Of a DNA stretch of 64,000 bases, positions 1-23,642 are shown in pieces; the stretch's first letter is position 1; the number at the start of each line of letters is the position of its first letter. A program made the position numbers and the translations under genes. The notes under the pieces were generated by a model. It was not told the origin of the DNA and made no database searches. It saw only the letters and a list, made by a program, of their open reading frames with translations. The stretch covers positions 5,252-69,251 of the IMG/VR virus record IMGVR_UViG_3300025929_000016; one strand, 5' to 3'. Origin of the DNA: a virus.

Positions 1-306
1 GCCTTGGGACATACCTGCACCTGTGGAAACAACAATCAGGTCAAGGTCGGCGTCCAGCATTTCCTTGCGGCCTTCCAACGTGGACAAGGCTTTGCCGACG
101 AAGAAATCATGCTTGCCTTGTTTGAACTGCATGCCAAGGTTGTCCAGGATTTCAGCAATTTCTACCCGATCAAGAACCTTGAGCTTTTCAGCTAGTTCCT
201 CGCACTGCAAGCCGACGTACATGGCCGACTGGCGCACGTTGACTTCAAAGGCTGTATTGCCAGCATCAACATTCCAGTTGATAATAGCGTCGATTGGATT
301 CCTCAT
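1..306 (-). CDS. MazG-like/PRA-PH-like NTP pyrophosphohydrolase (3' end truncated by window edge)
   Basis: Not in ORF track. Hand translation from ATG at 306 gives MRNPIDAIINWN...LQCEELAEK...KEMLDADLDLIVVSTGAGMSQG, with the EExxE and ExxD acidic motifs of all-alpha NTP-PPases. ATGA overlap with the upstream gene. Confidence 0.7.
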   Translation of the reverse strand, partial: MRNPIDAIINWNVDAGNTAFEVNVRQSAMYVGLQCEELAEKLKVLDRVEIAEILDNLGMQFKQGKHDFFVGKALSTLEGRKEMLDADLDLIVVSTGAGMSQG

Positions 307-485
307 TGACCTGCCTCCTCGTTCAGGCGCTGTACGCCGTCTTGGTACGTTTTCAGGTTGATGTCCGTGGACAACTTGATTTCTGCCGAGCCGTACTTGC
401 CGGTGCAGTAATTGATCTTCATGATAAGCTGTTCCATCAGTTCCAGCTTCTTCTCCAGATACACGGTCTTTTCCATAGCCATCAT
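303..485 (-). CDS. small hypothetical protein
   Basis: 60-aa ORF with 4-bp overlaps to both neighbours. Confidence 0.55.
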   Translation of the reverse strand: MMAMEKTVYLEKKLELMEQLIMKINYCTGKYGSAEIKLSTDINLKTYQDGVQRLNEEAGQ

Positions 486-1276
486 GCTTCCTTTCGTTGT
501 GATGATTCATAAGCCTTTTTCCAGGCCACACGGACGTCGGTACGGGTCATCCCGTTCCAACTGGTTTTTGTGGATTTCTCCACGACTGTGACAAAGCCAG
601 GATGCAGACCCGCTAACACATGAGCATCCTCCTTCATCAATTCTAGCGTGCGGTAGTTGCTGCACCCGCCTGCGGCGTTGCTGCTGCCGTGGTCATTAGC
701 GTACTGATAGAACACAGCGTTTCGGTACCCGGCGCGAAGTATCTGGAGTGTCATATCCATATCTTCTTTGGTCTTGGTGCGGTCGAACCTGAAGCCGTTA
801 CTCCGGACTACGTCCAGGTCCAAGCCAAAGATACGCATGCTCCGACCCACCAACTTGACGTTCAGCGGTTCGTTCTGATTGCCTTCCCTGCTGCTGATGC
901 CCACCATTGGGTACATCTCGAGAAATTCCAGCATGTCCTGGAACATTTGTTCGTGTTCCGCTGGCGTCATCTTGTACAGCTTCTTGGCCCCGGTTTCCTC
1001 TTTCCGTGTGAAGAACGTCAGATCGTCGTCCATTATGATCAAGAATCGTGTCAACACGTTCTCGATGAGCCACTGCCGCGTCGCCGTCAAGTTGGTAATC
1101 TCGGTAGGCAGCACTAGAAGCTGATTGGTTGAGAAACCCGCCGTCAGGTACTGCGGGTATTCCTGTTGCTGGACACTGAACAACACCATATCGCGTATCG
1201 ACGGCGGCAGGTTGTTGTAGGTCACTTGCTTGTTGATCCGGCCGAGTGTGTTTATCACTATTGTTACGTTCTGCAT
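482..1276 (-). CDS. GT-A fold DNA glycosyltransferase (GREB1/JGT/TAGT-like; related to T-even beta-glucosyl-HMC-alpha-glucosyltransferase)
   Basis: Motifs TLGR, IIMDDDL (DxD), KEDMDMTLQILRAG, GGCSNYRT and VRVAWKKAY; AAGGAG RBS. Confidence 0.8.
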   Translation of the reverse strand: MQNVTIVINTLGRINKQVTYNNLPPSIRDMVLFSVQQQEYPQYLTAGFSTNQLLVLPTEITNLTATRQWLIENVLTRFLIIMDDDLTFFTRKEETGAKKLYKMTPAEHEQMFQDMLEFLEMYPMVGISSREGNQNEPLNVKLVGRSMRIFGLDLDVVRSNGFRFDRTKTKEDMDMTLQILRAGYRNAVFYQYANDHGSSNAAGGCSNYRTLELMKEDAHVLAGLHPGFVTVVEKSTKTSWNGMTRTDVRVAWKKAYESSQRKEA

Positions 1277-1398
1277 CGTACTGCTCCTTAGTTAGTATGG
1301 GACGCTGTTCATTTTCTCTGATCCAAGCTTCATCTTCCTCCTCAATGCCGATTAAAGGACTCCAGGCAAGGTGGCCGCTACACCAATCCCAATGTCCT

Positions 1399-1842
1399 TT
1401 AATCTGCGTTCTTCCGCGCTGCAAGATGTTCAAGAGCTTTCCGCTTGGCGGCTCGTTTGCCGGAACGCGGCGGTCGTACGGGTTCAACCACCGTGCCTTC
1501 CCCGCGACGTAGCTCTTCGAGTTGTTCTTTGGTGTATGGTTTGACATAAGGTACCATTCCTGAATAAATGTTGAATTGTTGACGCGTCCACCCGGTAATG
1601 TCCATAATAGACAATATCATACGAGCTGACAGTACTGCATCCCTAGCCCAGACATGGCTCAATGTTGAGTGGCTTATGTCCAGCAGTTTAGACAATGTTC
1701 TGTTGGACACGGTCTGATTTTCTGCTAGGTCAGGATACAGATGTTCTATCAGTTTGTTGTGTAACCGCGTCGGTGTGTAAGAAGGACTATTGAGAACTGA
1801 TTTGTTGTAAGCCTCAATAGTCCTTTTGCGTGGCTGGCTCAT
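1399..1842 (-). CDS. XRE-like helix-turn-helix DNA-binding protein
   Basis: SNRTLSKLLDISHSTLSHVW HTH pattern; start at 1842 overlaps the polymerase stop. Confidence 0.6.
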   Translation of the reverse strand: MSQPRKRTIEAYNKSVLNSPSYTPTRLHNKLIEHLYPDLAENQTVSNRTLSKLLDISHSTLSHVWARDAVLSARMILSIMDITGWTRQQFNIYSGMVPYVKPYTKEQLEELRRGEGTVVEPVRPPRSGKRAAKRKALEHLAARKNAD

Positions 1843-3728
1843 CCTGCTAACCCCCAATTGGCCCCACGACCTACGCTAACCAGCACCGGCACGTTGAGCT
1901 TATAAGCGTTGATCATGACTTCTTCCATTTCTCGAGCCGCTTCCTCATGCTGTGGATTACCGGTCTCAATGCTAAATCCAAGTTCATCATGCACCGTAAC
2001 AAGAGGATAACCCAACACATCGTATATACCACGACGATGACCTTCAACCATGGCCCGCTTTGTGATATCTGCGGAGCTGCCTTGTAGAACAGCGTTTGCA
2101 GCAGCATGAGTATGAGCGCGCTTAACAGGTCCAAACCGATCGATGGCTTCCTGTTTATCTTTGAAAGCATATATCTCTCCAGGCTTCTTGTCTTCCTTAC
2201 GGATGAACTTGGTTGACTCCCAGAAGTCAAAGCGGCGCTTCCGCTTGCCTATTGTGCGTATATAGCCCCGGTTGCTGGCCCGCTGCATAGCCGCTTCCAT
2301 GAAGGCTTTGGCGAACGGTGCCTTTTGGTGGTATAGTTCGAAGATCTTCTTAGCTTCACTCATAGACAGGCCAAGACTAGCAGCGAGCTTAGTAACGCCC
2401 ATCCCGTACACCAAGCCAAAGTTGATATTCTTTGCCTGCTTCCGAGTGACACCTGTGAGTTGCGCACACATTTCATGAAAGTCTGTGGCCGGGTTTTCAA
2501 TATACTGTTCTCGTGCAACATCTGCAACGCCTCCGGGGAGGGTCGACGCAAAGTGTACGAGCAATCGGTATTCAATTTGACTGAAATCGTATCGCAACCA
2601 CTCTTGCCCATGTTCCGGTAAAAACATGCCACGGCACTTTGCGCTGAAGTACGGATCTTTCTCCGGGTTGGGGATGTTCTGCAAGTTAGGTTTTGATGCA
2701 CTAAGCCTGCCCGTAACCGTGCCATACTCGTCGCCCTTTAATTGATTAAACTGCCCATGCACCCGGCCATTGACGTTGGACTCAACAATGTAGCCCTTGA
2801 TAAATGTGTTGAGGAAGTGGCTATACTTCTTGGCCTCACCCATGTCGGCCAGCATAGGGACTTGGTCTACGAACTTCGCTAGGTTCTTGGCGTTAAGGGC
2901 CGGGTTTCCTTTAGCAGTTCGAGGATAGACAATTCCAAGTCGGTCAAGCTCAGCTGCGATCTGCTTACTAGACTTTGGATTAATTCCGGCAAAGTTAGAT
3001 TGCAGGTCATGGAGCTTGGCTGTCCACTCAATTTCAAGCTGATCTGCATACCCTGCATCAACTCGCACTCCATTGAGATGCATTCGGGCGAGGATAGGGA
3101 GTAGATCACTCTCCATTCTCCATAGGTCTGACATTTCATCTGCTTCCAGCTCCTTTATCTGGCCGTGTATCATTTCCAAGGGTAAAGCGACGTCCTCCTT
3201 TGCATACGGTGCAACCACGTGCGCGGGACATTTCCATATGAACGCTTTCTCTTTGCCCGGCTTGCAACCATAGTTTTGACGGATAAACGCCTCCATCGCT
3301 TCATCCTTTTTGCCGCGACCCAACCGCTTTTGAGCGATCGCCTCCAGGGAGTATTCGAACTGATTTTCATCAAGCAGCGGCTCGGCGACTTGAACGTCCC
3401 AGAAAGGCCCGGCAATCTGTATTCCCTCTGTCCACAGATACGCACACTCGTACTGAAGATTCGCACCCGTTTTAGGTATTTCAGTTGTAAGTTGATCACG
3501 CAGATACCTCCATACAGTTGCTCTGTCCAGGTTGCCGCCGCCTTCGTGCCGCACCGGATAGTACTCAGACCACGTTCTGCCGTCCGGCCACAGTGCGGCC
3601 AAAGCCACGCCTACAATGTAGCCGTCTCGCACCGCGCCCATGCCCTTGTCGATTAGGTCAGGGTCGTAGGTCTCCAAGTCAACGGCGATTAGCTGCGCCT
3701 GCTGTAAGTCGGGATAGGTGACTGTCAT
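1839..3728 (-). CDS. polA: DNA polymerase family A with 3'-5' exonuclease domain
   Basis: ExoI VDLET; TGRLSASKPNLQNIP; motif A YDFSQIEYR; motif B RKQAKNINFGLVYGMG; motif C TVHDEL. Confidence 0.97.
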   Translation of the reverse strand: MTVTYPDLQQAQLIAVDLETYDPDLIDKGMGAVRDGYIVGVALAALWPDGRTWSEYYPVRHEGGGNLDRATVWRYLRDQLTTEIPKTGANLQYECAYLWTEGIQIAGPFWDVQVAEPLLDENQFEYSLEAIAQKRLGRGKKDEAMEAFIRQNYGCKPGKEKAFIWKCPAHVVAPYAKEDVALPLEMIHGQIKELEADEMSDLWRMESDLLPILARMHLNGVRVDAGYADQLEIEWTAKLHDLQSNFAGINPKSSKQIAAELDRLGIVYPRTAKGNPALNAKNLAKFVDQVPMLADMGEAKKYSHFLNTFIKGYIVESNVNGRVHGQFNQLKGDEYGTVTGRLSASKPNLQNIPNPEKDPYFSAKCRGMFLPEHGQEWLRYDFSQIEYRLLVHFASTLPGGVADVAREQYIENPATDFHEMCAQLTGVTRKQAKNINFGLVYGMGVTKLAASLGLSMSEAKKIFELYHQKAPFAKAFMEAAMQRASNRGYIRTIGKRKRRFDFWESTKFIRKEDKKPGEIYAFKDKQEAIDRFGPVKRAHTHAAANAVLQGSSADITKRAMVEGHRRGIYDVLGYPLVTVHDELGFSIETGNPQHEEAAREMEEVMINAYKLNVPVLVSVGRGANWGLAG

Positions 3729-3919
3729 TGGTAGTGCTCCTCTGGTATGCCAAGCACTTTACGCACGTACAATACTCGACCTGTCCAACCTTCATACAAC
3801 AAGGTAAGGCGCTCATTGACTGCGCCGTTGTGCTTATGCCGCCATATGTGATTTTCGAGATAAACACGGTTGGTGTCCACATGAAAATGCTTGACGAACT
3901 TGTCTACTTTGATCATCAT
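3725..3919 (-). CDS. hypothetical protein
   Basis: 64-aa ORF with AAGGAGG RBS, coupled to ligase and polymerase. Confidence 0.55.
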   Translation of the reverse strand: MMIKVDKFVKHFHVDTNRVYLENHIWRHKHNGAVNERLTLLYEGWTGRVLYVRKVLGIPEEHYQ

Positions 3920-4809
3920 GACATATCCTCCTTGCTACGTGTCCACTTGGCTACTGGATGTCTTGGCGCGTCTTTGACTCCGACGTCAAGATACTTAAAG
4001 GTGAGTGTTTTGCCGAGGAACTCAGCTTGATTCTGAAAGATGTACCCGCGCCAGTAGTCATCGAGACCGATGCCGGTTCCGATTTGGAATCGGATTCCTC
4101 CAAAGTCGACAACGAACGCACCCAAGTCTCCTCTGCCGACAAGGTTCGCTTTGTGGCTTGATCGCTCAGTTCTTCCCAGCTCATTGGTTGTGGCTTCGTT
4201 GTCATTCCGCATCCTTTCGACAAATCCGATGATTGTTGCTTCTGCATCCTTGAACTGCTTGACCTTGAGCAGGATGCCTTCCTTGGCGGTGCTGCGGCCA
4301 TACTTGTACCGACCATGCGGCGAGCGTATCATGACGCCTTCGTAACCACGTTCCAGCATTTCCGTTTCGTAGGTCAGCAGTTCGTCCATGTTCGCCATCA
4401 ACAGTTGCTCTACCAATCGCACATCGGCGCCGTACTTCCAACCCATTAACTGCATCAGCTCGTGCCGAACACTAAAGGTTGCGTCGGGATGCTGCACATG
4501 GTCAAACACATAGAACGTTGCGTTTTCGGCAGGCTTGCTATGGGACATTACAACGGATGTTGTGCTGCGGAACACATCTGGCGCTGTCGGGTCTCCAACA
4601 ATCAGCTCGCCGTCAAGATAAGCCAGTTCTGGCCGGTTGAACAGTTGCTGAATATTGGCGTTAGGTACTTGCTTCAGGCTGCGTGTAACAAAGCCAAGGC
4701 CCGGCACGTTGGTTGCGCGGATACCGTCCAGCTTGGGACTGGCAAGCACAGGAAATACGATGTTCTCAAGCACCGCATCGGATGCGAGCATAGGTTTGAA
4801 ATCTGGCAT
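3916..4809 (-). CDS. ATP-dependent DNA ligase
   Basis: KPMLA, adenylation motif SPKLDGIR, LDGEL, YEGVMIR, LLKVK; start placed at MPDFKP after an AGGA RBS. Confidence 0.95.
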   Translation of the reverse strand: MPDFKPMLASDAVLENIVFPVLASPKLDGIRATNVPGLGFVTRSLKQVPNANIQQLFNRPELAYLDGELIVGDPTAPDVFRSTTSVVMSHSKPAENATFYVFDHVQHPDATFSVRHELMQLMGWKYGADVRLVEQLLMANMDELLTYETEMLERGYEGVMIRSPHGRYKYGRSTAKEGILLKVKQFKDAEATIIGFVERMRNDNEATTNELGRTERSSHKANLVGRGDLGAFVVDFGGIRFQIGTGIGLDDYWRGYIFQNQAEFLGKTLTFKYLDVGVKDAPRHPVAKWTRSKEDMS

Positions 4810-4908
4810 TTTATATCCTGTATGTTGTGTTAGCAAATACTAACAGGGGCAATTATACCGTAGCTGCACGGCAAATTGCCCCTAGTCGAAACAAACTTAT
4901 TTCGAGCA

Positions 4909-5436
4909 CTACGCCATGTTGCGGTCTTTCATACGTTCCACAATCTTGAGCATGTGCATCGCCTGGGACTTGGCGTCATCCAGCGCATTGTGGTGCGTAC
5001 CCTGACGCATGAAGGTTACACGCGGGAACATGTTCTTCATGGTGCGATAGCAGCGATTGTTGAAGAACTTCCATGGCGTTTCCGAACCCACCTTGCGATA
5101 CAGTTCTGCGAGCATGGCATTGTCAAAGTCGCTGCCGTTACCCCACAGTTCCATGTAGTCCGGTGCCCAGATGCTGAACTGCGCCAACGCCTTATCAGCC
5201 GCGATGCCGGGTTCCGACAGTACCGTGCGGGCTTCTGAAGACTGATCTGACCACCATTTGAGCGTAGCAGGGTCAGACGTGCAGCCAAGGTCAAAGCACG
5301 ATTGTCGGTCGATGACCACATAGAATTCGCGGCCGAGTGCCAACGAGTCGAAATCCATCTCCACGGCGCCGATGGAAAGTATGGCACTGTTGGCCCCGGT
5401 GCCAAGGGTTTCCAGGTCTAGCATAACGTTATTCAT
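4909..5436 (-). CDS. DEDD 3'-5' exonuclease (Rv2179c/ExoVIII-like)
   Basis: VMLDLETLG, WGNGSDFD, HHNALDDA motifs. Confidence 0.9.
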   Translation of the reverse strand: MNNVMLDLETLGTGANSAILSIGAVEMDFDSLALGREFYVVIDRQSCFDLGCTSDPATLKWWSDQSSEARTVLSEPGIAADKALAQFSIWAPDYMELWGNGSDFDNAMLAELYRKVGSETPWKFFNNRCYRTMKNMFPRVTFMRQGTHHNALDDAKSQAMHMLKIVERMKDRNMA

Positions 5437-5845
5437 GCTTAATTCCTTGTTTGGTTTCTTCGTGTTTGATTTGGGCCAGGATGAGATTCTTGGCATATTC
5501 CAAGTCGCTGTAGTCTTCCCACATCAAGATAAGATTGCTGACAGCTTGCTCCCATGGTAGAATCTCTGCTTCTTGGTAATATTTCAGAAGCAGATGTCCA
5601 TACCCTCTGCAACGTTCTAGCATAGGAGGTCTGTCCAAGTCCAGATAGTTGCTTGCCAGTCGCTTGTCAATATAGCTAATAGACTTCTGCAAGTCCTGGA
5701 TACCGTTCTTCTTGTACCAACGGGCAATGTACTTGCTGGCCGCAGATTCCAGATGTGGGACATCTGCATCATCGCAATAGTCCCAGTGCTGATATCCGCC
5801 AGCGTAGTGATTACCACCGACTTGTTCAACGTGTGGCGTAGACAT
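5429..5845 (-). CDS. DUF3310 (SaV-like) protein
   Basis: QVGGNHY...KYIARWYKKNGIQDLQKSISYI signature. Confidence 0.8.
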   Translation of the reverse strand: MSTPHVEQVGGNHYAGGYQHWDYCDDADVPHLESAASKYIARWYKKNGIQDLQKSISYIDKRLASNYLDLDRPPMLERCRGYGHLLLKYYQEAEILPWEQAVSNLILMWEDYSDLEYAKNLILAQIKHEETKQGIKHE

Positions 5846-6368
5846 ATTGATTCTCCAGTCTGTCAAAGATATTGCAAACGACTTGTTCATAGTCGATTGG
5901 GCAAGGCAGGGTGCGCAGGAAACCGACGATGTTGTCATACATGTCGATCACGTGCTTATTGCCGTACATTAGTTGGTCGATGCAGTAGAAACCAAGCTCC
6001 AGGCTGTCGGCCCACTTCAGCAATTGCTGCTCGTCCTTGGTAAGGTCAACCAACAGGCCGTGGCGCCGATTAAACGCTTCTTCCATTATCTCCAGCTTCT
6101 GCTTGAGCAATGGGCTGCGCCACTTGGTATTGGCGGGCACATCCCCGGTGCTAGTCTCGGCCAGATCGTGGTAGAGCGCCGCCTTCATCAAGTTCATGCT
6201 AGGCTGACCGCCGGTAATTTCCAGCACAAGCATTGCCACGTGGAAGCTATGCTCACCTACGGTCTGGTGACCAATGGTAGGCACGGTGTGGCAGCGACGC
6301 GTCATCGCAGACTGGCGCAAGTCATACATTTTAGTGTCAACGTAAGAGTTGAGTTCGGACATGTCCAT
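5826..6368 (-). CDS. HD-domain 5'-deoxynucleotidase (YfbR-like)
   Basis: QTVGEHSFHVA, ALYHDLAE, TGDVP, LKWADSLE. Confidence 0.88.
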   Translation of the reverse strand: MDMSELNSYVDTKMYDLRQSAMTRRCHTVPTIGHQTVGEHSFHVAMLVLEITGGQPSMNLMKAALYHDLAETSTGDVPANTKWRSPLLKQKLEIMEEAFNRRHGLLVDLTKDEQQLLKWADSLELGFYCIDQLMYGNKHVIDMYDNIVGFLRTLPCPIDYEQVVCNIFDRLENQYVYATR

Positions 6369-7381
6369 TATGCTTTCTCCTTTGCATTGTCCCAACGCTT
6401 TTCCAGCCACTGCATCGTTACCAACCGCCAGTCGTCGGCCAGGATATCAGATGCGTAGTGCTTCGTTGCTTCCCGCTGCGGTTCCAACTTGTTCTTACGC
6501 CATGTGACATGGCTATTGAATGTGTTCCACATAGGGTCAACCACATCGCAGAAGAATGCCGACTTGTAATGCGTGGTTTCGTGACCGGTATCCCAGCGGA
6601 AGAAGAACTCTGCCAAGTCCTCATCCCAATGCGGGTCGGCACAGCCCATAGGGAAGGCTCGCACACCATCCTCGGCATACGGGTCTTGGAAGTCCCGGTG
6701 CTTGACAATGTCAACCCATTGCTGATTGAGGTAGCAGTGGAAGCTGTCCGTGGTTTGGTGATAATGGCCGAGGGCGACACCGAGCTTGTCAGCGATGTAT
6801 TCCTGGAGCATGCTGAACTGGCAGACGTTGGTGCCGGTGAGACCCCAGATGAAGTCATTGCTGCGATTGATCACGTGCATGTTCAACCGGCCCTGCCGCA
6901 CCTTGAGCATGACCATCAGGTTGCAGGGTGTGTCCTTGCCTTCGTACCACAGGTCATTGCGGTCACGAATGTTGATAACCACCTGCCGGCTGTCCGGGTC
7001 TTTTTGCAGACGCTCGATTGCCTTCTGGATCTGGTCATCTCCCATACCCGGCAGACCGCGCATCCGGCGACCGTAGGCACCGTAATAGGTGGAGCCGTTG
7101 TCGCTGTACTTCGCCATGTTGGGCACAAGGTATTGCAAGAAGTCGACGTCTTCCCGGCCTGCAAGAATCCACAGCGGCTCGAAGAAGTGTAGGAACGGGT
7201 TGATGTCCCGTTGTTTGTTGAACAACACGCGCTGGCGCGGGTCTTTGTAGCAGACGCTGACCGGCTGGTCGATTTCTAGCGTATCGCCGTGCTGACTGGC
7301 CTGCTTGACGCCTTGGTTGAGCAACAGATTGATGCCAATGGAATAAACTTCATTGACGTTGTTTGCCTTGATTGTGATCAT
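6368..7381 (-). CDS. thymidylate synthase-fold dUMP hydroxymethyltransferase
   Basis: GAYGRR, DPDSRQVVI, catalytic PCN, and RSNDFIWGLTGTN (Asn specificity residue indicates dUMP; WGxxGxN resembles phage hmdUMP synthases), SFHCY. Confidence 0.85.
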   Translation of the reverse strand: MITIKANNVNEVYSIGINLLLNQGVKQASQHGDTLEIDQPVSVCYKDPRQRVLFNKQRDINPFLHFFEPLWILAGREDVDFLQYLVPNMAKYSDNGSTYYGAYGRRMRGLPGMGDDQIQKAIERLQKDPDSRQVVINIRDRNDLWYEGKDTPCNLMVMLKVRQGRLNMHVINRSNDFIWGLTGTNVCQFSMLQEYIADKLGVALGHYHQTTDSFHCYLNQQWVDIVKHRDFQDPYAEDGVRAFPMGCADPHWDEDLAEFFFRWDTGHETTHYKSAFFCDVVDPMWNTFNSHVTWRKNKLEPQREATKHYASDILADDWRLVTMQWLEKRWDNAKEKA

Positions 7382-7581
7382 TTTCTTCTGCCTTTATTGT
7401 CTCGGGATTCGAAACCGCCTGCTGCCGCAAACGCCTTCAACTTGTTGTACTGCTGCATTGCCATCTGCGGCGTGGAATACCAGATATGGCTACCCGGCCC
7501 ACGTACACGATATGCTGGAATGTTCGTGACTTCGCCAAACTTCGTTGCAATACCGAAGCCTTCACCTGTAGAACTTGTCAT
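7378..7581 (-). CDS. hypothetical protein
   Basis: 67-aa ORF with GAGG RBS; stop overlaps the next start. Confidence 0.55.
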   Translation of the reverse strand: MTSSTGEGFGIATKFGEVTNIPAYRVRGPGSHIWYSTPQMAMQQYNKLKAFAAAGGFESRDNKGRRK

Positions 7582-7598
7582 ATTATCCTCTGTATAAG

Positions 7599-8483
7599 TT
7601 ACTTGCCTGGATACCCACTACGAGGCTTACCTTCCCCGAGGCGGACTCTGCTATGTTTGTCGAATTCGCATAGACAGTTCTGTACGTCATGCACCGGTAA
7701 TTCTATTCCTGTGCGCTGGCGTATTGCACATTGTAGCACAAGAAGTTCCTCTTGTACACGGTCCGTTTTGATGCTCGCTTCCAGTGGCCGGGCGAAGTAA
7801 CGATTCAACCCTCGCCTGCTGCCCGGCCCTATAGGTGCCCAAGTCATCCAGTCGCTGGCGTTGGCGAGGACGGAAGTGTGCTTCAAGTCAGCTACAACCT
7901 GACCGGCCATGAAGCTCCCCATGCCGTCGAACCGTGTGAGTTCGTTGTGGAAATGGTATAACGATTCCCAAGGTAGACTGTCCATGAAAGCCTTGCTGTC
8001 ATGTATCGGCTTCACCACACGGTCAAGTATATAGTCAATCTTGTCCATGCTATGACCGTTGGTGCTCACCAGATAAGCGCCTGTCCAGATCTTGGCTCCT
8101 TTGGCACGTGCTTCTTTTAACGCCAAACGGATGGCATGAATATACCCTTCAAATGAATGCACTTCGCACTCAGGGAACCCAATCAATTGCAACGTGCTTT
8201 CCCTGTTGAACAACCGGGCGATGACCATGGCCGTAACCATGTTCGGGTGCGTATCATACGGGTCACGCCAGTTGCGCTTGATCCACTTGGTGACCTTGTC
8301 GTCTTCCCGGCGCACGTTGCAGAAGCGATATTGCTGGATGATAGGGTCGTGCGTCCACGGCGCAGGGAAGCCACTTTCCCTGCCTACCCGCGCCCGTTCG
8401 CGCTCTATGATCCAATGGTAAAAGAAAGCCTGATGGTTCTCCAGGCCAGCGTAGTCAACGAGTGGTGTGAGTGGTATGTTCAT
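7599..8483 (-). CDS. aGPT-Pplase1 / 5-hmdU DNA kinase helical-domain family protein
   Basis: WIIERE...PWTHDPIIQQYRFCNVRREDD, ARLFN, GMGSFMAGQVVADL, GPGSRRGL, QNCLCEFDK. Confidence 0.85.
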   Translation of the reverse strand: MNIPLTPLVDYAGLENHQAFFYHWIIERERARVGRESGFPAPWTHDPIIQQYRFCNVRREDDKVTKWIKRNWRDPYDTHPNMVTAMVIARLFNRESTLQLIGFPECEVHSFEGYIHAIRLALKEARAKGAKIWTGAYLVSTNGHSMDKIDYILDRVVKPIHDSKAFMDSLPWESLYHFHNELTRFDGMGSFMAGQVVADLKHTSVLANASDWMTWAPIGPGSRRGLNRYFARPLEASIKTDRVQEELLVLQCAIRQRTGIELPVHDVQNCLCEFDKHSRVRLGEGKPRSGYPGK

Positions 8484-8884
8484 AAGTCCTCAGTAACGTG
8501 TTTCCACGAAATTTTCCTTTTTATTTGGCTCACAGTGGACTGGGAAACGCCAAAGTTATCGGCAATTCTTTGCTGCGAACCATATGCTTGGTAAATCAAC
8601 CTCACCAATTCCTCGTCTATAATCGCATTCAGAACCTGTGAGCCTCTGGGTTGCCTTCCCTTATTAACCTTATCTTTCATATTATCTTCATGCGTACCTA
8701 AGAATAAGTGATCAATGTTATAGCAGTTTCGAACATCACACTTATGCAACACCTGAAGACCTTGCGGTATTGGACCATGGTGCTTCTCCCACTCAAGACG
8801 ATGGACTTTGAATATTTTTCGGTTTATGGTGCGTTGTCCATAGCCGTGGCTTGATGCTCCTTCCCACAGTATGCATGGTGTCAT
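8480..8884 (-). CDS. free-standing HNH homing endonuclease with C-terminal HTH
   Basis: CILWEG...GYG...VHRLEW...VLHKCDVRNCYNIDHLFLGTHEDNMKD; C-terminal SQQRIADNFGVSQSTVSQI. Confidence 0.9.
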   Translation of the reverse strand: MTPCILWEGASSHGYGQRTINRKIFKVHRLEWEKHHGPIPQGLQVLHKCDVRNCYNIDHLFLGTHEDNMKDKVNKGRQPRGSQVLNAIIDEELVRLIYQAYGSQQRIADNFGVSQSTVSQIKRKISWKHVTEDL

Positions 8885-8893
8885 ATCAGTTCC

Positions 8894-10432
8894 TCAATAT
8901 GGATAATGGTATTTGCCTTGCGGGAGAACGATGGTTATGCGCTCCTTAGCGCGGGTTAGGGCAACGAAGGCAACGCGATGCTCAGAGTCGCGATCCTTAT
9001 CCATTTCTACATAAGTCCTTTTAGACATGTCGGACATGATGACTACGTGGTCAGCTTGCCCACCTTTGACGCCGTGGATCGTATTAACATGGATCTTAGG
9101 CGTTGAAGAGATTCTTCGCTTTTCCCTGAGTACAGTGATATAATACTGTCGCGTTTCGAGAGATATTCCTTCGAGGGCGTCGTGCCAGACAGGGAGAGGG
9201 TCTCGAGTAAGTCCAAATCTAACGCGGAGATCATCAAGGGTGAGTGCGAGGTCAGGGTCTTCAATGCTGTTGAGCGCAGCCTTACCTCCCCTAGCCACAA
9301 GTCCTCCAACTCTAAGGTGTTCATACATCTCCTTCGCATTTGCTATGGTTAAGGCATTGCCCGGTGCTTTACGCAGGTGCTCCCACGCTACTATGGCCTG
9401 CACGTGGGCCGGTTTAACGCTGGTAAAACCGTTGCGCCCGGTGTAGGTATAGCCCCGCGTATGTAGCAGCTCGTAAATATTATTTAACAGGTAGACATTG
9501 CGCACCAGAATCAATGTTTCTTCATCCGGGTTAATGTCAATCTGCTCCAACATGGAAACATAGTTTATATCACCCTCGGCATCACGCGGTGTGAACTTCT
9601 TGGTGAAACGCTTGCGAACCTGCATTATAACGCTGTTCGCCTTTTCGTACACAACTCTGGGAAGACGGTAAGAATGGCTCAATATTTCCCGGTCGCCTTC
9701 CAAGGCCAGGAAAGTCTCAAGGTCAGCGCCAGACCATTTGTAGATGGACTGATCGTCATCACCAGCAATAATCACCTTCTGCGCACCGCTGAATGCCTTC
9801 TGCAAAACCATCCATTGGGCCTTGGACAAATCTTGCGCTTCGTCGATAACCACGACCTTGACACGCACCGGGCGACCTTCTTCAACGTACCGGTGCAACA
9901 GGTCAGTGAAGTCCATTAACCCATTCTTTTTCTTGTACATTTCGTACCCGGCACTGAACCGTTCTTGCTCTGCCCATGCTACATCAAAACCTTCGTCTTC
10001 CCAAGTTGCCCTTATAGATACACATTTGACGCGGGCAATATTGTCCAGGAAAAGGAATTTGTCTCCTGGTGCAGCTCCAGTCGGTAGAACCCCGTCGGCC
10101 ATGTCATACTGTCCAGACATGTCGTATCCAAGCCAATCACCAAGCTCCGTAAAATTCTGTCTTCCCATGAGGTTTTGTTTGCTACATCCAAGTTCGCGGA
10201 AACAGAGGGAGTGCACAGTTTGGAAAAGAGGAAGTCGTTTTCGCTTAAGATTAAATTGTGCGCAGGCCCGATCAGCGGCTTCTTGGACTGCTTTTTTCGT
10301 GAACGAGACGAAGGCGATTTCTTCTGGTTTGATCCCACGATTAAGTTCCTCCTGCACCATGTTCAACAAGGTAGTGGTTTTGCCGGTGCCCGGTGGCCCA
10401 AGCAATACAAGCTGATTAGGTGCGATCAACAC
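8894..10432 (-). CDS. UvrD/Rep-like superfamily 1 helicase
   Basis: GPPGTGKTT, VIDEAQD, GDDDQSIY, SYRLP, TIHGVKG, VALTRAK; GTG start at 10432 after GAGG. Confidence 0.93.
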   Translation of the reverse strand: MLIAPNQLVLLGPPGTGKTTTLLNMVQEELNRGIKPEEIAFVSFTKKAVQEAADRACAQFNLKRKRLPLFQTVHSLCFRELGCSKQNLMGRQNFTELGDWLGYDMSGQYDMADGVLPTGAAPGDKFLFLDNIARVKCVSIRATWEDEGFDVAWAEQERFSAGYEMYKKKNGLMDFTDLLHRYVEEGRPVRVKVVVIDEAQDLSKAQWMVLQKAFSGAQKVIIAGDDDQSIYKWSGADLETFLALEGDREILSHSYRLPRVVYEKANSVIMQVRKRFTKKFTPRDAEGDINYVSMLEQIDINPDEETLILVRNVYLLNNIYELLHTRGYTYTGRNGFTSVKPAHVQAIVAWEHLRKAPGNALTIANAKEMYEHLRVGGLVARGGKAALNSIEDPDLALTLDDLRVRFGLTRDPLPVWHDALEGISLETRQYYITVLREKRRISSTPKIHVNTIHGVKGGQADHVVIMSDMSKRTYVEMDKDRDSEHRVAFVALTRAKERITIVLPQGKYHYPY

Positions 10433-10646
10433 GATTGAACCTCTGTATGCGTAGGTTAAGGACTTGCAGATAGCCAAGCATGTAGTTCAGTTGCAAGGCA
10501 AGGTGTCTGGCATCCGTGGCGTCCAGCGCCTTGTACTGGTCAGTTGCCAGGAACGCACGAAGCTTTTCACATTTCCTTAACAATTCAAGATGCTCTTCGT
10601 ACACGCGCTGTTGCCATTCGGTGTACAGCATAGGGATTTCAGGCAT
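10416..10646 (-). CDS. small helical protein, crAss001_48-like
   Basis: WQQRVYEEHLEL...KLRAFL...QLNYMLGYLQVLNLRI pattern; AGGAG RBS. Confidence 0.65.
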   Translation of the reverse strand: MPEIPMLYTEWQQRVYEEHLELLRKCEKLRAFLATDQYKALDATDARHLALQLNYMLGYLQVLNLRIQRFNRVDRT

Positions 10647-10716
10647 TTGGATCTCCTAGAGAGGATATTATCAGAGCAATAAGAATAACCAGCGCCGTAC
10701 ACATGATGACTGTCAT
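10639..10716 (-). CDS. putative 25-aa hydrophobic peptide
   Basis: MTVIMCTALVILIALIISSLGDPNA with upstream GGAG; below the ORF-track cutoff. Confidence 0.3.
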   Translation of the reverse strand: MTVIMCTALVILIALIISSLGDPNA

Positions 10717-10848
10717 GATCTCATTGCTCCGCAAGTTGTGTGCACTTTCAACAAAGACCGCAGTACAGGGTTCCAGCACTGCGGCACAGGTGCCGGGTTG
10801 ACCGCTCTACAAGCAAGCGGACTGCCCGGTGGCGGCATGGGTAGCCGC

Positions 10849-12390
10849 TTAAAACTGCATGTCGTCGTCATCGGGCAGCTCAAGCTTCACAGACGGTACC
10901 AATTCGGCAGGTATGCGCCAAACCTGCACGGTTGTGTTCTTGACCTTGATAGTGCCATGTGTGGCACCATTTTCCCTAAGACTTGTCCAGATCTTGCGTG
11001 GCTCGGTGCGTATGCCATTATTGTCCAGATACTTCAACAACGAGTTACCGGCAAAGCATATCATGTCGGACTCTTTGTCGTGCCATGGACGGCCCAGGAT
11101 AATGTCATCCTTCCTACGTGCCGGTGGCGTCTGTACCAAATACTGGAAGGCATACTGATTGATGCGGCTGGCCGCACGGCTTTCAACAGGTGCTTCGATA
11201 AGCTCAACCGTCTCCAGCTTTTCACGGACAATCTTGTCCCAATCATTGGCCTTAACCCTTGGCGGCAGCTTGTTGATAGCCATCACACAAGACCGCCTAA
11301 ACCGCTCCTGAGACATCAAGTCCTCAGTATCCAACTGCACACGCACACCATCCACATCCATAATCCAGATAGGCGGCTCTGTGGCAATCTTGATTAACGA
11401 GCCTAGGTTCAACGTAAATTCTACGTCGCCCTGCCCAATGCCGAAGGTACGCTTGCGGCACAGGTCTTTATTGCAACTGCTGATAAGAGGAGCCTTATTG
11501 CACGGATAGAAATACTCCTTGCGCCCCAGACTCTTAACCAGCAACGACACTTCTTTGGCACCGAGCGGCGGCGTGATGTACCGTTGGTTCATCTCATCGA
11601 CCTTCTCCTCCCAGTCATCGTCAAACTTTAACCGAGCATACACGCCAATAGCAAACAGGGTGTTGTTCCTCGTACCTTCCGGGATCTTGTTGCGGGTAAT
11701 CATTTGCAGGCACGGCGGGCCGTCCTCAAAGGCACCCTTAACGTCGACCTGCACCGCAGACATGGTCGCATGGTCAATGCGAATCATACGGGCCAGTTCA
11801 ATGAACTGCAAGGCTGACAGCTTTTCACCCTTGAAAATACCGTAGCGTTCGGTTGCCCTATGCTCAAAGTACGGCATGTTCAACCAGTTGCCGACGTCGT
11901 TCTTATTTGCCAGCATGTTCTGCTTAGGGAATATTTCTACGCCGCCATAGCCCATCGCCAAGGCAAACTCATACAGCTTGGCCCGGACTTCCTTACAAGG
12001 CACCGGCTCGCTTAAGAACATCGTTAGGTGTGCGCCGCCGGACTTGGTGCGGATGGTCAGTAGCGGTAGTCCCAGGGCACGGACTTTTTCCTCGATTGCG
12101 TTGAGATCGAGTGGGTATTCATCAATGTCAATGGCACCCCACCAGCAAGTACCATCGTCTTGGATAGGAACGACCCCGAGAGAAGCATTGCCGTTAAGAT
12201 GCTGGCTCCACAGTTTAACATTGTAGTCTCCTTTTTCCGTTGTGGCGCGGCCCTGCACCTTATTATCATCCCGCACCGTGTTGGTAATCTTGAACCGGCC
12301 AAATGCCCGGTCCAACCCTTTGTACAGGTCAAAGAACTGATCAGCTAAAAGTTGCTCTTCTGTCAGGTCTTTATCGGAAGGTTTTGCCAT
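10849..12390 (-). CDS. AEP-superfamily DNA primase with PriCT-like domain
   Basis: GAIDID (motif I), RTKSGGAHL (motif II), LNMPY, GPPCL, GTRNNTLF. Confidence 0.85.
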   Translation of the reverse strand: MAKPSDKDLTEEQLLADQFFDLYKGLDRAFGRFKITNTVRDDNKVQGRATTEKGDYNVKLWSQHLNGNASLGVVPIQDDGTCWWGAIDIDEYPLDLNAIEEKVRALGLPLLTIRTKSGGAHLTMFLSEPVPCKEVRAKLYEFALAMGYGGVEIFPKQNMLANKNDVGNWLNMPYFEHRATERYGIFKGEKLSALQFIELARMIRIDHATMSAVQVDVKGAFEDGPPCLQMITRNKIPEGTRNNTLFAIGVYARLKFDDDWEEKVDEMNQRYITPPLGAKEVSLLVKSLGRKEYFYPCNKAPLISSCNKDLCRKRTFGIGQGDVEFTLNLGSLIKIATEPPIWIMDVDGVRVQLDTEDLMSQERFRRSCVMAINKLPPRVKANDWDKIVREKLETVELIEAPVESRAASRINQYAFQYLVQTPPARRKDDIILGRPWHDKESDMICFAGNSLLKYLDNNGIRTEPRKIWTSLRENGATHGTIKVKNTTVQVWRIPAELVPSVKLELPDDDDMQF

Positions 12391-14199: not shown

Positions 14200-14224
14200 T
14201 TGAAAACTCCAATAATAAAAAGAT

Positions 14225-16320: not shown

Positions 16321-16372
16321 GATCGTGTCCTGTTATAAACTGTATGGGTGTGGCGGGGTTGCCACGGTGCCC

Positions 16373-16401
16373 ATACTACCCAAAACGCTGTGCGATAGCA
16401 A
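16373..16401 (-). promoter_or_regulatory. sigma70-like promoter
   Basis: TTGCTA-N17-TAGTAT upstream of the gene at 16320. Confidence 0.5.
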
Positions 16402-23640: not shown

Positions 23641-23642
23641 AT

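What the first reader, a model, noticed from the sequence alone, without database searches (positions are those of the whole stretch)
1..8483. Hydroxymethyluracil pathway coupled to a base-J-type glycosyltransferase: candidate new sugar-modified thymine
Seen: one minus-strand cluster around the polymerase holds a TS-fold enzyme with the Asn (dUMP) specificity residue (6368-7381), an aGPT-Pplase1/5-hmdU DNA kinase-family gene (7599-8483), an HD nucleotidase, a MazG-like pyrophosphohydrolase and a GREB1/JGT-like glycosyltransferase (482-1276). Known: in M6/ViI-type phages 5-hmdU is phosphorylated and then replaced with amino acids by an amino acid:DNA transferase, whereas kinetoplastid JGT glucosylates hmU to base J. 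No amino acid:DNA transferase, TET/JBP oxygenase or dCMP hydroxymethylase is visible in this window. Inference: the phage replaces T with hmU and may glycosylate hmU directly (phage base J) or via phospho-hmU, with HD/MazG depleting dTMP/dTTP. The cluster continues past the left edge, so further enzymes may be hidden.
Basis: partly seen in the sequence, partly recalled or inferred. Interest (0 to 1): 0.82.

Follow-up and report, generated by a model that had tools for sequence, protein, structure and literature searches.

The report
Phage hydroxymethyluracil glycosylation module, no kinase
A complete uncultured phage genome carries the genes to swap thymine for hydroxymethyluracil and probably attach a sugar to it, together with a conserved helper enzyme of unknown role that had been mistaken for a kinase.

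Summary
On the minus strand the window encodes:
- a thymidylate-synthase homologue with the dUMP-hydroxymethylase signature (Asp143, Cys146, Asp169, Asn177 in E. coli numbering)
- an HD 5'-nucleotidase
- a MazG-like pyrophosphohydrolase
- a GT-A glycosyltransferase of Pfam TAGT
- a PF18723 protein

One label is wrong. PF18723 ("HMUDK_hel", aGPT-Pplase clade 1) is not the 5-hmdU DNA kinase. It has no P-loop. The whole 69,251-bp genome, including the 5.2 kb left of the window, has no P-loop kinase (PF18748), no amino acid:DNA transferase (PF18724), no Nmad5 and no TET/JBP.

The gene set is not a one-off. Among 80 IMG/VR loci with related TAGT genes, 73 carry the same hydroxymethylase type and 68 also carry PF18723. 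In 44 of those 68, PF18723 sits directly next to TAGT. None has the kinase or transferase. The cultured phage PhiJL001 has the same trio.

Best reading (about 0.6): hydroxymethyluracil replaces thymine before replication and is glycosylated on DNA, giving a base-J-like product with no phospho intermediate. PF18723 is a Cys-bearing paralogue of the transferase. Its active-site residues are the same whether it is paired with a kinase or with TAGT. Its role is unresolved.

I rate this a new variant of a known kind; there is no chemical proof.

The parts
1..531 (-). 3' part of a 226-aa MazG-like nucleotide pyrophosphohydrolase gene (full gene G000:C1:5102-5782). Candidate dTTP/dUTP pyrophosphatase.
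   Evidence: phrog_671 E 1.7e-25 and phrog_2144 MazG-like E 4e-4 for the full protein; no Pfam hit. Substrate is inferred by analogy with the dTTPase/dUTPase of phage 15599 (PMC13458397, passages).
482..1276 (-). TAGT-family GT-A glycosyltransferase (264 aa), the only one in the genome. Proposed DNA 5-hmU glycosyltransferase.
   Evidence: PF20691 E 3e-19 over profile positions 2-205 of 205; phrog_842 E 1e-46. One match in the genome. AF2 pLDDT 93.5. GT-A fold; Foldseek top hits RmlT and TarP, E about 3e-7. Asp84-Asp85, Asp172 and Gly203-Gly204-Cys205 are invariant and Asp83 is at least 90% conserved in 43 homologues.
1839..3728 (-). Family A DNA polymerase (629 aa) in the same operon-like run. 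Presumed to incorporate 5-hmdUTP.
   Evidence: PF00476 E 1.6e-64; phrog_17 E 2e-103. Same synteny as M6-like, Pam3 and RHph_I65 phages.
5429..5938 (-). DUF3310-like small protein (169 aa), syntenic with DUF3310 genes downstream of the TS-HD genes in RHph_I65 (by GenBank label) and, by position, Pam3. Function unknown.
   Evidence: phrog_5839 E 3e-21; phrog_236 'nucleotide kinase' E 2e-10; Pfam DUF3310 below cut-off. BLASTP against T7 gp1.7 is not significant, E 0.42.
5826..6410 (-). HD-domain YfbR-like 5'-deoxynucleotidase (194 aa). Candidate dTMP-removing enzyme.
   Evidence: PF12917 E 1e-13 and PF13023 E 1e-7. An HD gene follows the TS homologue in 43 of 80 related loci and in MP1412, PhiJL001, Pam3 and MW202897. 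Substrate is inferred.
6368..7381 (-). Thymidylate-synthase-fold dUMP hydroxymethylase (337 aa).
   Evidence: PF00303 E 7e-20; phrog_5131 E 2.5e-94. Best solved relative is MilA CMP hydroxymethylase 5b6d, E 1e-27. Alignment with E. coli ThyA gives Asp at 143, Cys146, Asp169 and Asn177. It is 36% identical to MP1412_16.
7599..8483 (-). PF18723 / aGPT-Pplase clade 1 protein (294 aa). All-alpha, HhH-glycosylase-like paralogue of the amino acid:DNA transferase. Not a kinase.
   Evidence: PF18723 E 4e-44. 35% identical to MP1412_14. No Walker A. AF2 pLDDT 91.6. Best structural match is PaMx11 gp46/PUGT 8z2m_A, Z 10.4, rmsd 4.4, 221 residues. 20 invariant residues including Cys272-Glu273.
8480..8884 (-). 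HNH homing-type endonuclease lying between the UvrD-like helicase gene and the PF18723 gene. Context only.
   Evidence: PF13392 E 5e-17; phrog_59 E 5e-36.

Best explanation
This is a thymidine-hypermodification module of the M6/Pam3/PhiJL001 phage lineage. The usual kinase + amino-acid-transferase cassette is replaced by a single GT-A glycosyltransferase.

Proposed course:
1. The TS homologue makes 5-hydroxymethyl-dUMP from dUMP. This is inferred from four active-site signature residues.
2. The HD nucleotidase and the MazG-like pyrophosphohydrolase drain dTMP/dTTP, and recycle dUTP, so that thymine is kept out. This is inferred by analogy.
3. Cellular or unidentified kinases make 5-hmdUTP and the phage PolA incorporates it. 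Inferred.
4. After replication, the TAGT enzyme uses a host NDP-sugar to glycosylate the hydroxymethyl group of 5-hmU in DNA. No sugar-nucleotide gene is encoded, so UDP-glucose is the simplest guess. The product would be a 5-(glycosyloxymethyl)uracil of the base-J type, with no phospho-hmU intermediate. This is inferred from family membership and from strict linkage to dUMP-type hydroxymethylases.
5. The PF18723 protein is not a kinase. It is a Cys-bearing paralogue of the amino acid:DNA transferase and acts on 5-hmU-containing, probably nascent, DNA. It has the same conserved residues whether its neighbour is a kinase or a glycosyltransferase, so its substrate is most likely 5-hmU itself. 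Either it presents or selects sites for the O-modifying partner, or it processes the 5-hmU that is left unmodified. Which of these is open.
For: Hydroxymethylase:
- Asp143/Cys146/Asp169/Asn177 are present in the window protein and in 76 of 76 TS homologues that cover the site (72 IMG/VR loci, the window's genome, PhiJL001, MP1412, MW202897). One further ORF was truncated.
- The meaning of these positions comes from PMC13326640, sections 24 and 28: N177 means dUMP, an acidic residue at 143 means hydroxymethyl, and D169N means 5-hydroxy.

TAGT:
- Pfam above cut-off, GT-A fold, and a DDD motif (Asp84-Asp85 invariant, Asp83 at least 90% conserved).
- Family members act on DNA (T6 TAGT, PMC13390438 passage) and align with the J-base GT and GREB1 (PMC7968844 passage).

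Linkage:
- 268 IMG/VR relatives of the TAGT were found and 80 were kept.
- A TS homologue is present in 73 of 80, PF18723 in 69 of 80 and HD in 43 of 80 by phmmer.
- 68 loci have TAGT and PF18723 on the same strand. 44 of these are adjacent (27 in one order, 17 in the other), 19 lie within 1.5 kb and 5 lie farther apart.

No kinase or AADT:
- 0 of 80 loci by tblastn or phmmer.
- PF18748 in 0 of 41 and PF18724 in 0 of 41 whole records, 17 of them at least 90% complete.
- The window's own genome has 0.
- Positive controls: MP1412; Pam3, RHph_I65 and L092.

PF18723:
- All 20 residues invariant in 41 TAGT-linked proteins are identical in kinase-linked MP1412_14, Pam3_50 and RHph_I65_008.
- The best structural match is the AADT PaMx11 gp46.
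- Kinase-linked members nest inside the TAGT-linked diversity.

The genome is estimated to be complete (CheckV 100%). 59 ORFs scanned against Pfam gave no other modification or sugar-nucleotide enzyme.
Against: - There are no chemical data. No tool here can show a modified base.
- One characterised TAGT (T6) adds glucose to a sugar already on hmC, not to the base (PMC13390438 passage). The family does not fix the acceptor.
- T4 beta-GT glucosylates 5-hmU in duplex DNA only when it is mispaired with G (PMC4111573 abstract), so hmU:A may be a difficult acceptor.
- The top solved structural neighbours of the TAGT model are wall-teichoic-acid glycosyltransferases, not DNA enzymes.
- L082 and L084 carry TAGT and the TS homologue but no PF18723 within 10 kb. 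The 14.7 kb of MW202897 that I read has none either. PF18723 is therefore not obligatory for the glycosyltransferase.
- In the window the two genes lie 6.3 kb apart, not adjacent.
- The alignment placing Cys272 on the AADT catalytic Cys is not significant (E 0.5). VIA Z 10.4 is below the level at which helical folds are safe (note).
- The HD and MazG substrates are guesses.
Confidence: 0.6

Rival explanations
1. PF18723 acts first. Like its AADT paralogue, it uses Cys attack at C6 to replace the hydroxyl of 5-hmU with a small hydroxyl-bearing nucleophile. TAGT then glycosylates that linker. The result would be a linker-plus-sugar thymine of the SP-15/YerA41/Carin-5 kind rather than base J.
For: - PF18723 is structurally closest to the AADT PaMx11 gp46 and keeps an invariant Cys-Glu.
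- It is adjacent to TAGT in 44 of 68 loci.
- Phages with glycosylated linkers on thymine exist, and some related phages carry an aGPT-Pplase gene (PMC13697223 passages).
Against: - AADTs need phospho-hmU, and no kinase is present.
- The AADT metal ligands Glu-Thr upstream of the Cys read Gln-Asn in the window's PF18723 under a non-significant alignment (PMC11472151 section 14; PMC13458397 passages).
- The same PF18723 active site occurs in M6-type phages, where a separate AADT does the transfer and the positional equivalent gp55 was not needed (PMC8989533 passages).
- TAGT + TS loci without PF18723 exist.
Confidence: 0.13
2. 5-hmU is phosphorylated by the 7599-8483 product, and the phosphate is then displaced, or the phospho-base is glycosylated.
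For: The Pfam name of PF18723 is '5-hmdU DNA kinase, helical domain'. In SP10 a Pplase domain is fused to the kinase (PMC5889632, Table 3 passage).
Against: - No Walker A in the protein.
- PF18748 is absent from the genome and from 41 related records, with a positive control in MP1412.
- The demonstrated kinase is the separate P-loop protein M6 gp54 (PMC8989533 passages).
Confidence: 0.04
3. The glycosyltransferase does not act on DNA. It modifies a host surface polymer or a protein, and the virion DNA carries plain 5-hmU (as in SPO1/SP8) or 5-hmU partly converted to T.
For: - The nearest solved folds are the teichoic-acid enzymes TarP and RmlT.
- GREB1, a relative, glycosylates a protein (PMC7968844 abstract and passage).
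Against: - The gene sits in the replication/nucleotide module.
- It travels with a dUMP hydroxymethylase in 73 of 80 loci and next to a DNA-base-flipping-type protein in 44 of 68.
- Characterised phage TAGT and GT-A relatives act on DNA (PMC13390438; bioRxiv 10.1101/2023.12.21.572611, passages).
Confidence: 0.08
4. The TS homologue is an ordinary thymidylate synthase, a dCMP enzyme or a 5-hydroxy-pyrimidine synthase, so the acceptor is not 5-hmU.
For: TS homologues with unexpected chemistry (5-hydroxy-dCMP synthases) were reported recently (PMC13326640 abstract and sections 24, 28).
Against: All four diagnostic positions point to a dUMP hydroxymethylase: Asp rather than Leu at 143, Asp rather than Asn at 169, and Asn rather than Asp at 177. 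The signature is the same as in MP1412, a close relative of M6, whose DNA modifications derive from 5-hmdU (PMC8989533 abstract).
Confidence: 0.04

Closest known systems
M6/YuA/MP1412, Pam3 and RHph_I65-type thymidine hypermodification clusters (5-NedU pathway)
   Same: - Same backbone and order: PF18723 gene, then dUMP hydroxymethylase, HD nucleotidase, a DUF3310-type gene and PolA, with an NTP pyrophosphohydrolase nearby.
- The TS signature is identical, and all 20 conserved PF18723 residues are identical.
   Different: - The P-loop 5-hmdU DNA kinase, AADT, PLP enzyme, radical-SAM enzyme and Nmad5 are all missing here.
- A TAGT glycosyltransferase is present instead.
- The predicted product is an O-glycoside, not an amino-alkyl thymine.
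Alphaproteobacteria phage PhiJL001 (AY576273; Keylargovirus, Mesyanzhinovviridae)
   Same: It has gp19 PF18723, gp22 TAGT-like 'glucosyl transferase', gp24 hydroxymethylase, gp25 HD and PolA on one strand. It has no PF18748, and only a sub-threshold PF18724 echo inside gp19. It is the only cultured phage with the trio among the 7 phage records that hit the window's TAGT.
   Different: - Only 36% (TAGT), 34% (PF18723) and 38% (TS) identical to the window proteins.
- It also has Nmad5, dCMP deaminase and ribonucleotide reductase.
- I found no report on its DNA chemistry. The 2005 genome paper is not held.
Kinetoplastid base J pathway (JBP1/2 thymine hydroxylases + JGT)
   Same: The end product predicted here, a sugar on the hydroxymethyl group of 5-hmU in DNA, is of the same chemical type. 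The GT domain family is related to the J-base GT (PMC7968844 passage; bioRxiv 10.1101/2023.12.21.572611 passage on structural similarity at about 9% identity).
   Different: - 5-hmU arises before replication from dUMP through a TS homologue, not by oxidation of T in DNA.
- No TET/JBP is present.
- The extent would likely be genome-wide rather than at about 1% of T (recalled).
- The sugar and the anomer are unknown.
T-even hmC glucosylation (T4 alpha/beta-GT; T6 TAGT) and phage TET/5mYOX + GT-A systems
   Same: The logic is the same: a hydroxymethyl-pyrimidine in DNA is glycosylated after replication. The Pfam family is the same as T6 TAGT (PMC13390438 passage). Pyle et al. report that GT-A phage enzymes are found next to either 5mYOX or ThyS homologues in metagenomes (bioRxiv 10.1101/2023.12.21.572611, passage).
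   Different: The base here is uracil-derived (Asn177), not cytosine-derived. There is no methyltransferase or dioxygenase. There is an obligatory-looking PF18723 partner, which those papers do not mention in the passages I read.
SP-15 / YerA41 / Carin-5 glycosylated thymine hypermodifications
   Same: These are sugar-bearing thymine derivatives in phage DNA, and an aGPT-Pplase gene is noted in related genomes (PMC13697223 abstract and passages).
   Different: In those phages the sugar sits on a long linker at C5 and the PolA is fused to a UDG domain. Here PolA is 629 aa with no UDG domain detected and no linker-forming enzymes were found.

Membership tests
TS-fold dUMP hydroxymethylase (SPO1 gp29 / M6-type) | Thymidylate-synthase fold with the catalytic Cys (E. 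coli C146) | tested here: met
   PF00303 E 7e-20. Cys aligned with C146.
TS-fold dUMP hydroxymethylase (SPO1 gp29 / M6-type) | Asn at ThyA-177 (uracil rather than cytosine substrate) | tested here: met
   Asn in HMMER alignments to TS 6auj, aligned with the Asp of MilA; also in MAFFT alignments. Criterion from PMC13326640, section 24.
TS-fold dUMP hydroxymethylase (SPO1 gp29 / M6-type) | Acidic residue in place of Leu143 (water access, giving hydroxymethyl) and Asp169 retained (not the D169N of 5-hydroxy synthases) | tested here: met
   Asp at 143 and Asp at 169. Criteria from PMC13326640, sections 24 and 28.
TS-fold dUMP hydroxymethylase (SPO1 gp29 / M6-type) | Makes 5-hmdUMP from dUMP and methylene-THF | not testable with these tools
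   Needs an enzyme assay.
TAGT (PF20691) GT-A DNA glycosyltransferase | Profile match above the curated cut-off over the whole domain | tested here: met
   70.2 bits against 27.5, profile positions 2-205 of 205; 70.7 bits in the genome scan.
TAGT (PF20691) GT-A DNA glycosylltransferase | GT-A fold with an acidic DxD-type metal/NDP-sugar motif | tested here: met
   Model pLDDT 93.5. GT-A enzymes top the Foldseek list. Asp84-Asp85 invariant, Asp83 at least 90% conserved.
TAGT (PF20691) GT-A DNA glycosyltransferase | Genomic association with a TET/JBP dioxygenase (origin of the family name) | tested here: not met
   PF12851 has 0 matches in the genome. A TS-type hydroxymethylase supplies the hydroxymethyl base instead.
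TAGT (PF20691) GT-A DNA glycosyltransferase | Transfers sugar to a hydroxymethyl-pyrimidine (or its sugar) in DNA | not testable with these tools
   Needs an assay on 5-hmdU DNA.
5-hmdU DNA kinase (5-HMUDK, PF18748) | P-loop kinase domain / Walker A motif | tested here: not met
   No G....GK[ST] in the 7599-8483 protein (the motif is recalled). PF18748 has 0 matches in the genome at E<=1. Positive control MP1412, E 1e-19.
aGPT-Pplase clade 1 (PF18723, 'HMUDK_hel') | Profile match; all-alpha HhH-glycosylase-like fold related to AADT | tested here: met
   151.5 bits against 25. All-helical model. 8z2m_A PUGT Z 10.4, then DNA glycosylases Z 8-9. Weak Foldseek hits to MutY/OGG.
aGPT-Pplase clade 1 (PF18723, 'HMUDK_hel') | Conserved C-terminal LCExDK motif and the other family-invariant polar residues | tested here: met
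   20 invariant positions shared with MP1412_14, Pam3_50, RHph_I65_008 and PhiJL001 gp19.
Amino acid:DNA transferase (AADT, aGPT-Pplase clade 2, PF18724) | PF18724 match, and Glu-Thr metal ligands four residues before the catalytic Cys | tested here: not met
   PF18724 has 0 matches in the genome. Under a non-significant alignment the window's PF18723 motif reads Gln-Asn-x-Leu-Cys. Residue roles from PMC11472151 section 14 and PMC13458397 passages.
M6/ViI-type thymidine hypermodification pathway | Kinase + AADT pair acting on 5-hmU DNA | tested here: not met
   Both are absent. Only the hydroxymethylase, HD and PF18723 components are shared.
Kinetoplastid base J system | JBP-type thymine dioxygenase plus JGT | tested here: not met
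   No Tet_JBP. The relation of the GT to JGT rests on papers (PMC7968844; bioRxiv 10.1101/2023.12.21.572611) and was not tested by alignment here.

The most novel reading that the evidence does not exclude
The phage makes genuine base-J-type DNA (glycosyl-oxymethyl-uracil) by a route with no dioxygenase and no kinase.

PF18723 (aGPT-Pplase clade 1) would then be the long-missing enzyme that deals with 5-hmU left unmodified in DNA. It would use Cys attack at C6 to form the exocyclic methylene and turn the base into thymine, or it would decide which sites are modified. It would work at the replication fork. It would be the common core of all 5-hmU-derived hypermodification systems, whether the partner is a kinase or a glycosyltransferase.

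The virion DNA would then be a sequence-patterned mosaic of sugar-hmU and T.
Probability: 0.18. Interest if true: 0.85.

Novelty: new variant of a known kind. Interest (0 to 1): 0.62.

Why it matters
Base J is so far known as a rare mark made by oxidation of thymine in kinetoplastids and their relatives. A phage route to the same kind of base through dUMP hydroxymethylation would be an independent invention. It would also be a new anti-restriction chemistry. In addition, it would supply enzymes that glycosylate 5-hmU paired with A in duplex DNA, which T4 beta-GT does not do (PMC4111573 abstract). Such enzymes would be useful for mapping 5-hmU.

The survey also isolates an orphan protein, PF18723. 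It keeps one active site across kinase-type and glycosyltransferase-type systems. This bears directly on a question stated as open in PMC5889632: how 5-hmdU in phage DNA becomes thymidine, and how sites are chosen.

The module is common in viromes: 268 relatives in IMG/VR. One cultured phage, PhiJL001, carries it, so the prediction can be tested with existing material.

Tried and rejected
- Complex prediction on TAGT (alignment A2) with PF18723 (A3) returned 'no answer' (score 0.00). I count it neither for nor against binding.
- Foldseek of the PF18723 model against PDB gave nothing at E<=0.001. A profile search of A3 against PDB sequences gave only chance hits. The VIA wide search was needed to find PUGT.
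- hhalign of A3 against a single AADT sequence failed (probability 1.4%). A local hmmsearch gave only a non-significant Cys-on-Cys alignment.
- megablast of window 1-12000 against phages found no match.
- A search for TAGT fusions ('longer') found none. This is weak evidence.
- T7 gp1.7 against the DUF3310-like ORF was not significant, so I dropped the idea that it is the hmdUMP kinase.
- In genome contigs I found only 4 MAG contigs with a TAGT relative, so there is no host lead.

Literature:
- Searches found no paper reporting glycosylated 5-hmU made through a dUMP hydroxymethylase in a phage, and none on the function of aGPT-Pplase clade 1.
- Iyer et al. 2013 (PMC3763556) and Lohr et al. 2005 (PMC1065128) are not held. 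They may already note the TAGT-Pplase1 neighbourhood. What I say of Iyer 2013 is recalled.
- Supplementary files were not opened. Table S4 of Pyle et al. and the supplements of Lee et al. 2021 could bear on novelty.

Rows dropped:
- For alignment A2 I used 43 of 63 homologues, leaving out short and near-duplicate ones.
- For A3 I used 41 of 65 distinct PF18723 ORFs, leaving out truncated, over-extended and redundant ones.
- The tree used those 41 plus PhiJL001, L091 and 4 kinase-linked proteins. It was midpoint-rooted and no support values were printed.
- For whole-record family scans I used 41 of the 80 loci, the longest contigs.

Full report
**What is there**

The window is bases 5252-69251 of a 69,251-bp IMG/VR virus record. 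CheckV rates the record 100% complete and it is classed as linear.

On the minus strand of window 1-8884 lies an uninterrupted run of genes:
- MazG-like pyrophosphohydrolase. The gene runs 149 bases past the left edge; the full protein is 226 aa, with phrog_671 E 1.7e-25 and no Pfam hit.
- TAGT glycosyltransferase (482-1276).
- A small HTH-like ORF.
- Family A DNA polymerase.
- ATP-dependent ligase.
- Rv2179c-like exonuclease.
- A DUF3310-like ORF.
- HD/YfbR-like 5'-nucleotidase (5826-6410).
- A thymidylate-synthase homologue (6368-7381).
- A 67-aa ORF.
- A PF18723 protein (7599-8483).
- An HNH endonuclease.

A UvrD-like helicase, an AEP primase and a PD-(D/E)XK nuclease follow.

**The left edge**

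I read the 5,251 bases to the left of the window. They hold:
- the start of the MazG-like gene
- small ORFs
- a 382-aa protein of an unnamed PHROG
- a weak T4-endoV-like/phrog_624 gene
- a HisKA fragment

There is no transferase, kinase or sugar-nucleotide gene.

Six-frame family scans of the whole record found no PF18748 (P-loop 5-hmdU DNA kinase), PF18724 (amino acid:DNA transferase), PF18757 (Nmad5) or PF12851 (Tet_JBP). They found exactly one TAGT.

Pfam scans of 59 ORFs of the genome found no other modification enzyme. The middle of the window is structural and lysis genes, many without any Pfam match.

**The TS homologue**

Its best solved relative is MilA, a CMP hydroxymethylase (E 1e-27).

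I aligned it with E. coli ThyA, T4 gp42 and phage relatives. It has the catalytic Cys146, Asp in place of Leu143, Asp169 and Asn177. A 2026 paper (PMC13326640, sections 24 and 28, read in full) gives the meaning of these positions:
- Asn177 selects dUMP and Asp selects dCMP.
- An acidic residue at 143 goes with hydroxymethyl rather than methyl products.
- Asp169Asn marks the newly found 5-hydroxy-dCMP synthases.

The window enzyme therefore carries the dUMP-hydroxymethylase signature and not the hydroxylase one. T4 gp42 aligns one residue out of register at position 177 in MAFFT. The HMMER alignments to TS and to MilA agree on the window's Asn.

**The 'kinase-family' gene**

Pfam calls PF18723 '5-hmdU DNA kinase, helical domain'. 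However, in the M6-like phage MP1412 the proteins are separate:
- _10 is PF18724 (the transferase).
- _13 is PF18748 (the P-loop kinase).
- _14 is PF18723.

The window protein is 35% identical to _14 and has no Walker A motif.

Lee et al. (PMC8989533, passages) showed that M6 gp54 is the kinase and gp51 the glycine:DNA transferase, and that gp55 could be left out. PMC5889632 (Table 3 passage) lists gp51 and gp55 as the two Pplase paralogues. gp55 is therefore the counterpart of _14 by position and family, which is an inference.

**How general the arrangement is**

The window's TAGT has 63 homologues in the protein database. A search of IMG/VR with their alignment found 268 relatives, of which 80 loci were kept.

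In those 80 loci, phmmer on ORFs gave:

| Gene | Loci with it (of 80) |
|---|---|
| TS homologue | 73 |
| PF18723 | 69 |
| HD | 43 |
| P-loop kinase, transferase, Nmad5 | 0 |

tblastn gave 74, 70 and 0 for the TS homologue, PF18723 and the kinase/transferase/Nmad5/PLP/rSAM queries.

Every TS homologue that covers the active site has the same Asp143/Cys146/Asp169/Asn177 signature. That is 76 of 76, counting the window's genome, PhiJL001, MP1412 and MW202897; one more ORF is cut off by a contig end.

In 68 loci TAGT and PF18723 are both present, always on one strand:
- 44 are directly adjacent, many with a 4-base overlap, in either order (27 and 17).
- 19 lie within 1.5 kb.
- 5 lie farther apart.

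Whole-record scans of the 41 longest contigs, 17 of them at least 90% complete, again found no PF18748 and no PF18724. MP1412 was the positive control, with Pam3, RHph_I65 and L092 as positive controls for the local search.

Exceptions:
- L082 and L084 carry TAGT and the TS homologue but no PF18723 within 10 kb. The 14.7 kb of MW202897 that I read has none either.
- L028, L049, L050 and L062 have TAGT without a TS homologue in the fetched stretch. L083 has no TS homologue either and only a weak (37-bit) PF18723 match at its edge.
- Several other loci are cut by contig ends.

Among cultured phages only PhiJL001 has the trio.

**The two proteins**

The TAGT model (pLDDT 93.5) is a GT-A fold. Its nearest solved structures are RmlT, TarP and GalNAc-transferases. 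This is the same neighbourhood that Pyle et al. report for phage DNA GT-A enzymes (bioRxiv 10.1101/2023.12.21.572611, passages). Asp84-Asp85, Asp172 and Gly203-Gly204-Cys205 are invariant and Asp83 is at least 90% conserved.

The PF18723 model (pLDDT 91.6) is all-helical. A Foldseek-independent search puts the amino acid:DNA transferase PaMx11 gp46/PUGT first (8z2m_A, Z 10.4, rmsd 4.4, 221 residues). The queuine-salvage DUF2419 and HhH DNA glycosylases follow. For helical proteins this Z is suggestive only.

Forty-one TAGT-linked PF18723 proteins share 20 invariant residues, including Cys272-Glu273 in an LCEFDK motif. All 20 are identical in the kinase-linked proteins of MP1412, Pam3 and RHph_I65. 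A non-significant alignment places Cys272 on the catalytic Cys of the transferase, with Gln-Asn where the transferase has its Glu-Thr metal ligands (PMC11472151 section 14; PMC13458397 passages).

On an approximate tree, the kinase-linked proteins fall at two places inside the TAGT-linked diversity.

Longer relatives exist in which PF18723 is the N-terminal domain of a primase-helicase: 9 proteins were found, and 4 of the 5 I scanned have Prim-Pol, RepB-primase, AAA_25 or DUF5906 domains.

**Reading**

The backbone is that of M6, Pam3, RHph_I65 and PhiJL001: PF18723, hydroxymethylase, HD, DUF3310, PolA. In those phages the gene just upstream of PF18723 is the kinase, directly in MP1412 and Pam3 and with one small ORF between in RHph_I65. 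In the TAGT lineage it is usually the glycosyltransferase.

The simplest account is that 5-hmU fully replaces T during replication and TAGT then puts a sugar on its hydroxymethyl group. No sugar-nucleotide gene is encoded, so a host NDP-sugar is used. With a single GT, a monosaccharide is the default.

PF18723 keeps one active site with either partner. The only intermediate the two systems share is 5-hmU in DNA, so that is its likely substrate. The primase-helicase fusions suggest it works on nascent DNA.

Two roles fit:
- Presenting or selecting 5-hmU for the O-modifying enzyme. This is in line with the SP10 kinase-Pplase fusion in PMC5889632 and with T4 beta-GT failing on hmU:A pairs (PMC4111573 abstract).
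- Processing the unmodified remainder, for instance to thymine. PMC5889632 names that step as unknown. The borohydride experiment in PMC8989533 shows it to be chemically reachable from the Cys-methylene intermediate.

I cannot decide between these two roles. The existence of TAGT + TS loci without PF18723 argues that the glycosyltransferase can act alone.

**Novelty**

That phage GT-A enzymes sit near ThyS homologues is stated in general terms by Pyle et al. Iyer et al. 2013 (recalled, not held) defined TAGT and the Pplase clades.

In the papers I could search I found:
- no demonstration of glycosylated 5-hmU in a phage made by this route
- no mention of the TAGT-PF18723 pairing
- no assigned function for clade 1

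I therefore rate it a new variant of a known kind (5-hmU-derived thymidine hypermodification). It is well supported as a gene module and unproven as chemistry.

Noticed in passing
proteins P0064, P0067, P0068, P0072 (database hits): PF18723 occurs as the N-terminal domain of 559-1081-aa proteins that continue into Prim-Pol/PriCT_2/AAA_25, RepB-primase/AAA_25 or DUF5906 primase-helicase modules. This tethers the orphan domain to the replisome. P0066 (553 aa) has PF18723 plus about 280 residues with no Pfam match.
   Followed up: partly
L092:14302-16455: The TS homologue of this IMG/VR contig matches in two tblastn pieces about 1 kb apart (14302-14880 and 15868-16455). That suggests an intervening element such as an intron, intein or homing endonuclease. 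The same locus has PF18723 and a weak P-loop-kinase-like match (52 bits) instead of TAGT.
   Followed up: no
window 8480-8884 and 56868-57671: There are two HNH endonuclease genes with HTH domains. One is wedged between the UvrD-like helicase gene and the PF18723 gene, so it is a possible homing insertion into the replication module.
   Followed up: no
L004:840-1325 and L004:3761-3997 (left of the window): A 161-aa protein matches phrog_624 (E 3e-46) and, weakly, the T4 endonuclease V family Pyr_excise (below cut-off). A 78-aa ORF is an isolated HisKA phospho-acceptor domain (E 5e-13).
   Followed up: no
window 13405-16320: Three genes match the cyanophage Pam3 gp34, gp33 and gp32 families (E 2e-76, 1e-26, 2e-28) next to the replication module. 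This links the phage to the Pam3/M6/PhiJL001 group.
   Followed up: partly
window 19493-29148 and 31385-34667: A long run of large minus-strand ORFs (up to 732 aa) has no Pfam match at E<=0.001. They are presumably novel tail or structural proteins. Neighbours include a GH108 lysin, a Laminin_G/fn3 fibre protein, a capsid protein and a terminase.
   Followed up: no
window 61979-62557 and 62656-63633: A 192-aa ORF ends in a weak PEP-CTERM-like motif (below cut-off), which is odd for a phage. The next gene is a DUF932 protein, E 1e-55.
   Followed up: no
L094-L097: TAGT relatives in prokaryote genome collections were found only on four contigs of 15-46 kb in MAGs labelled Methylobacter, Acidimicrobiaceae, Woesearchaeota and Clostridia. 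These are probably binned phage contigs, so the labels are unreliable as hosts.
   Followed up: no
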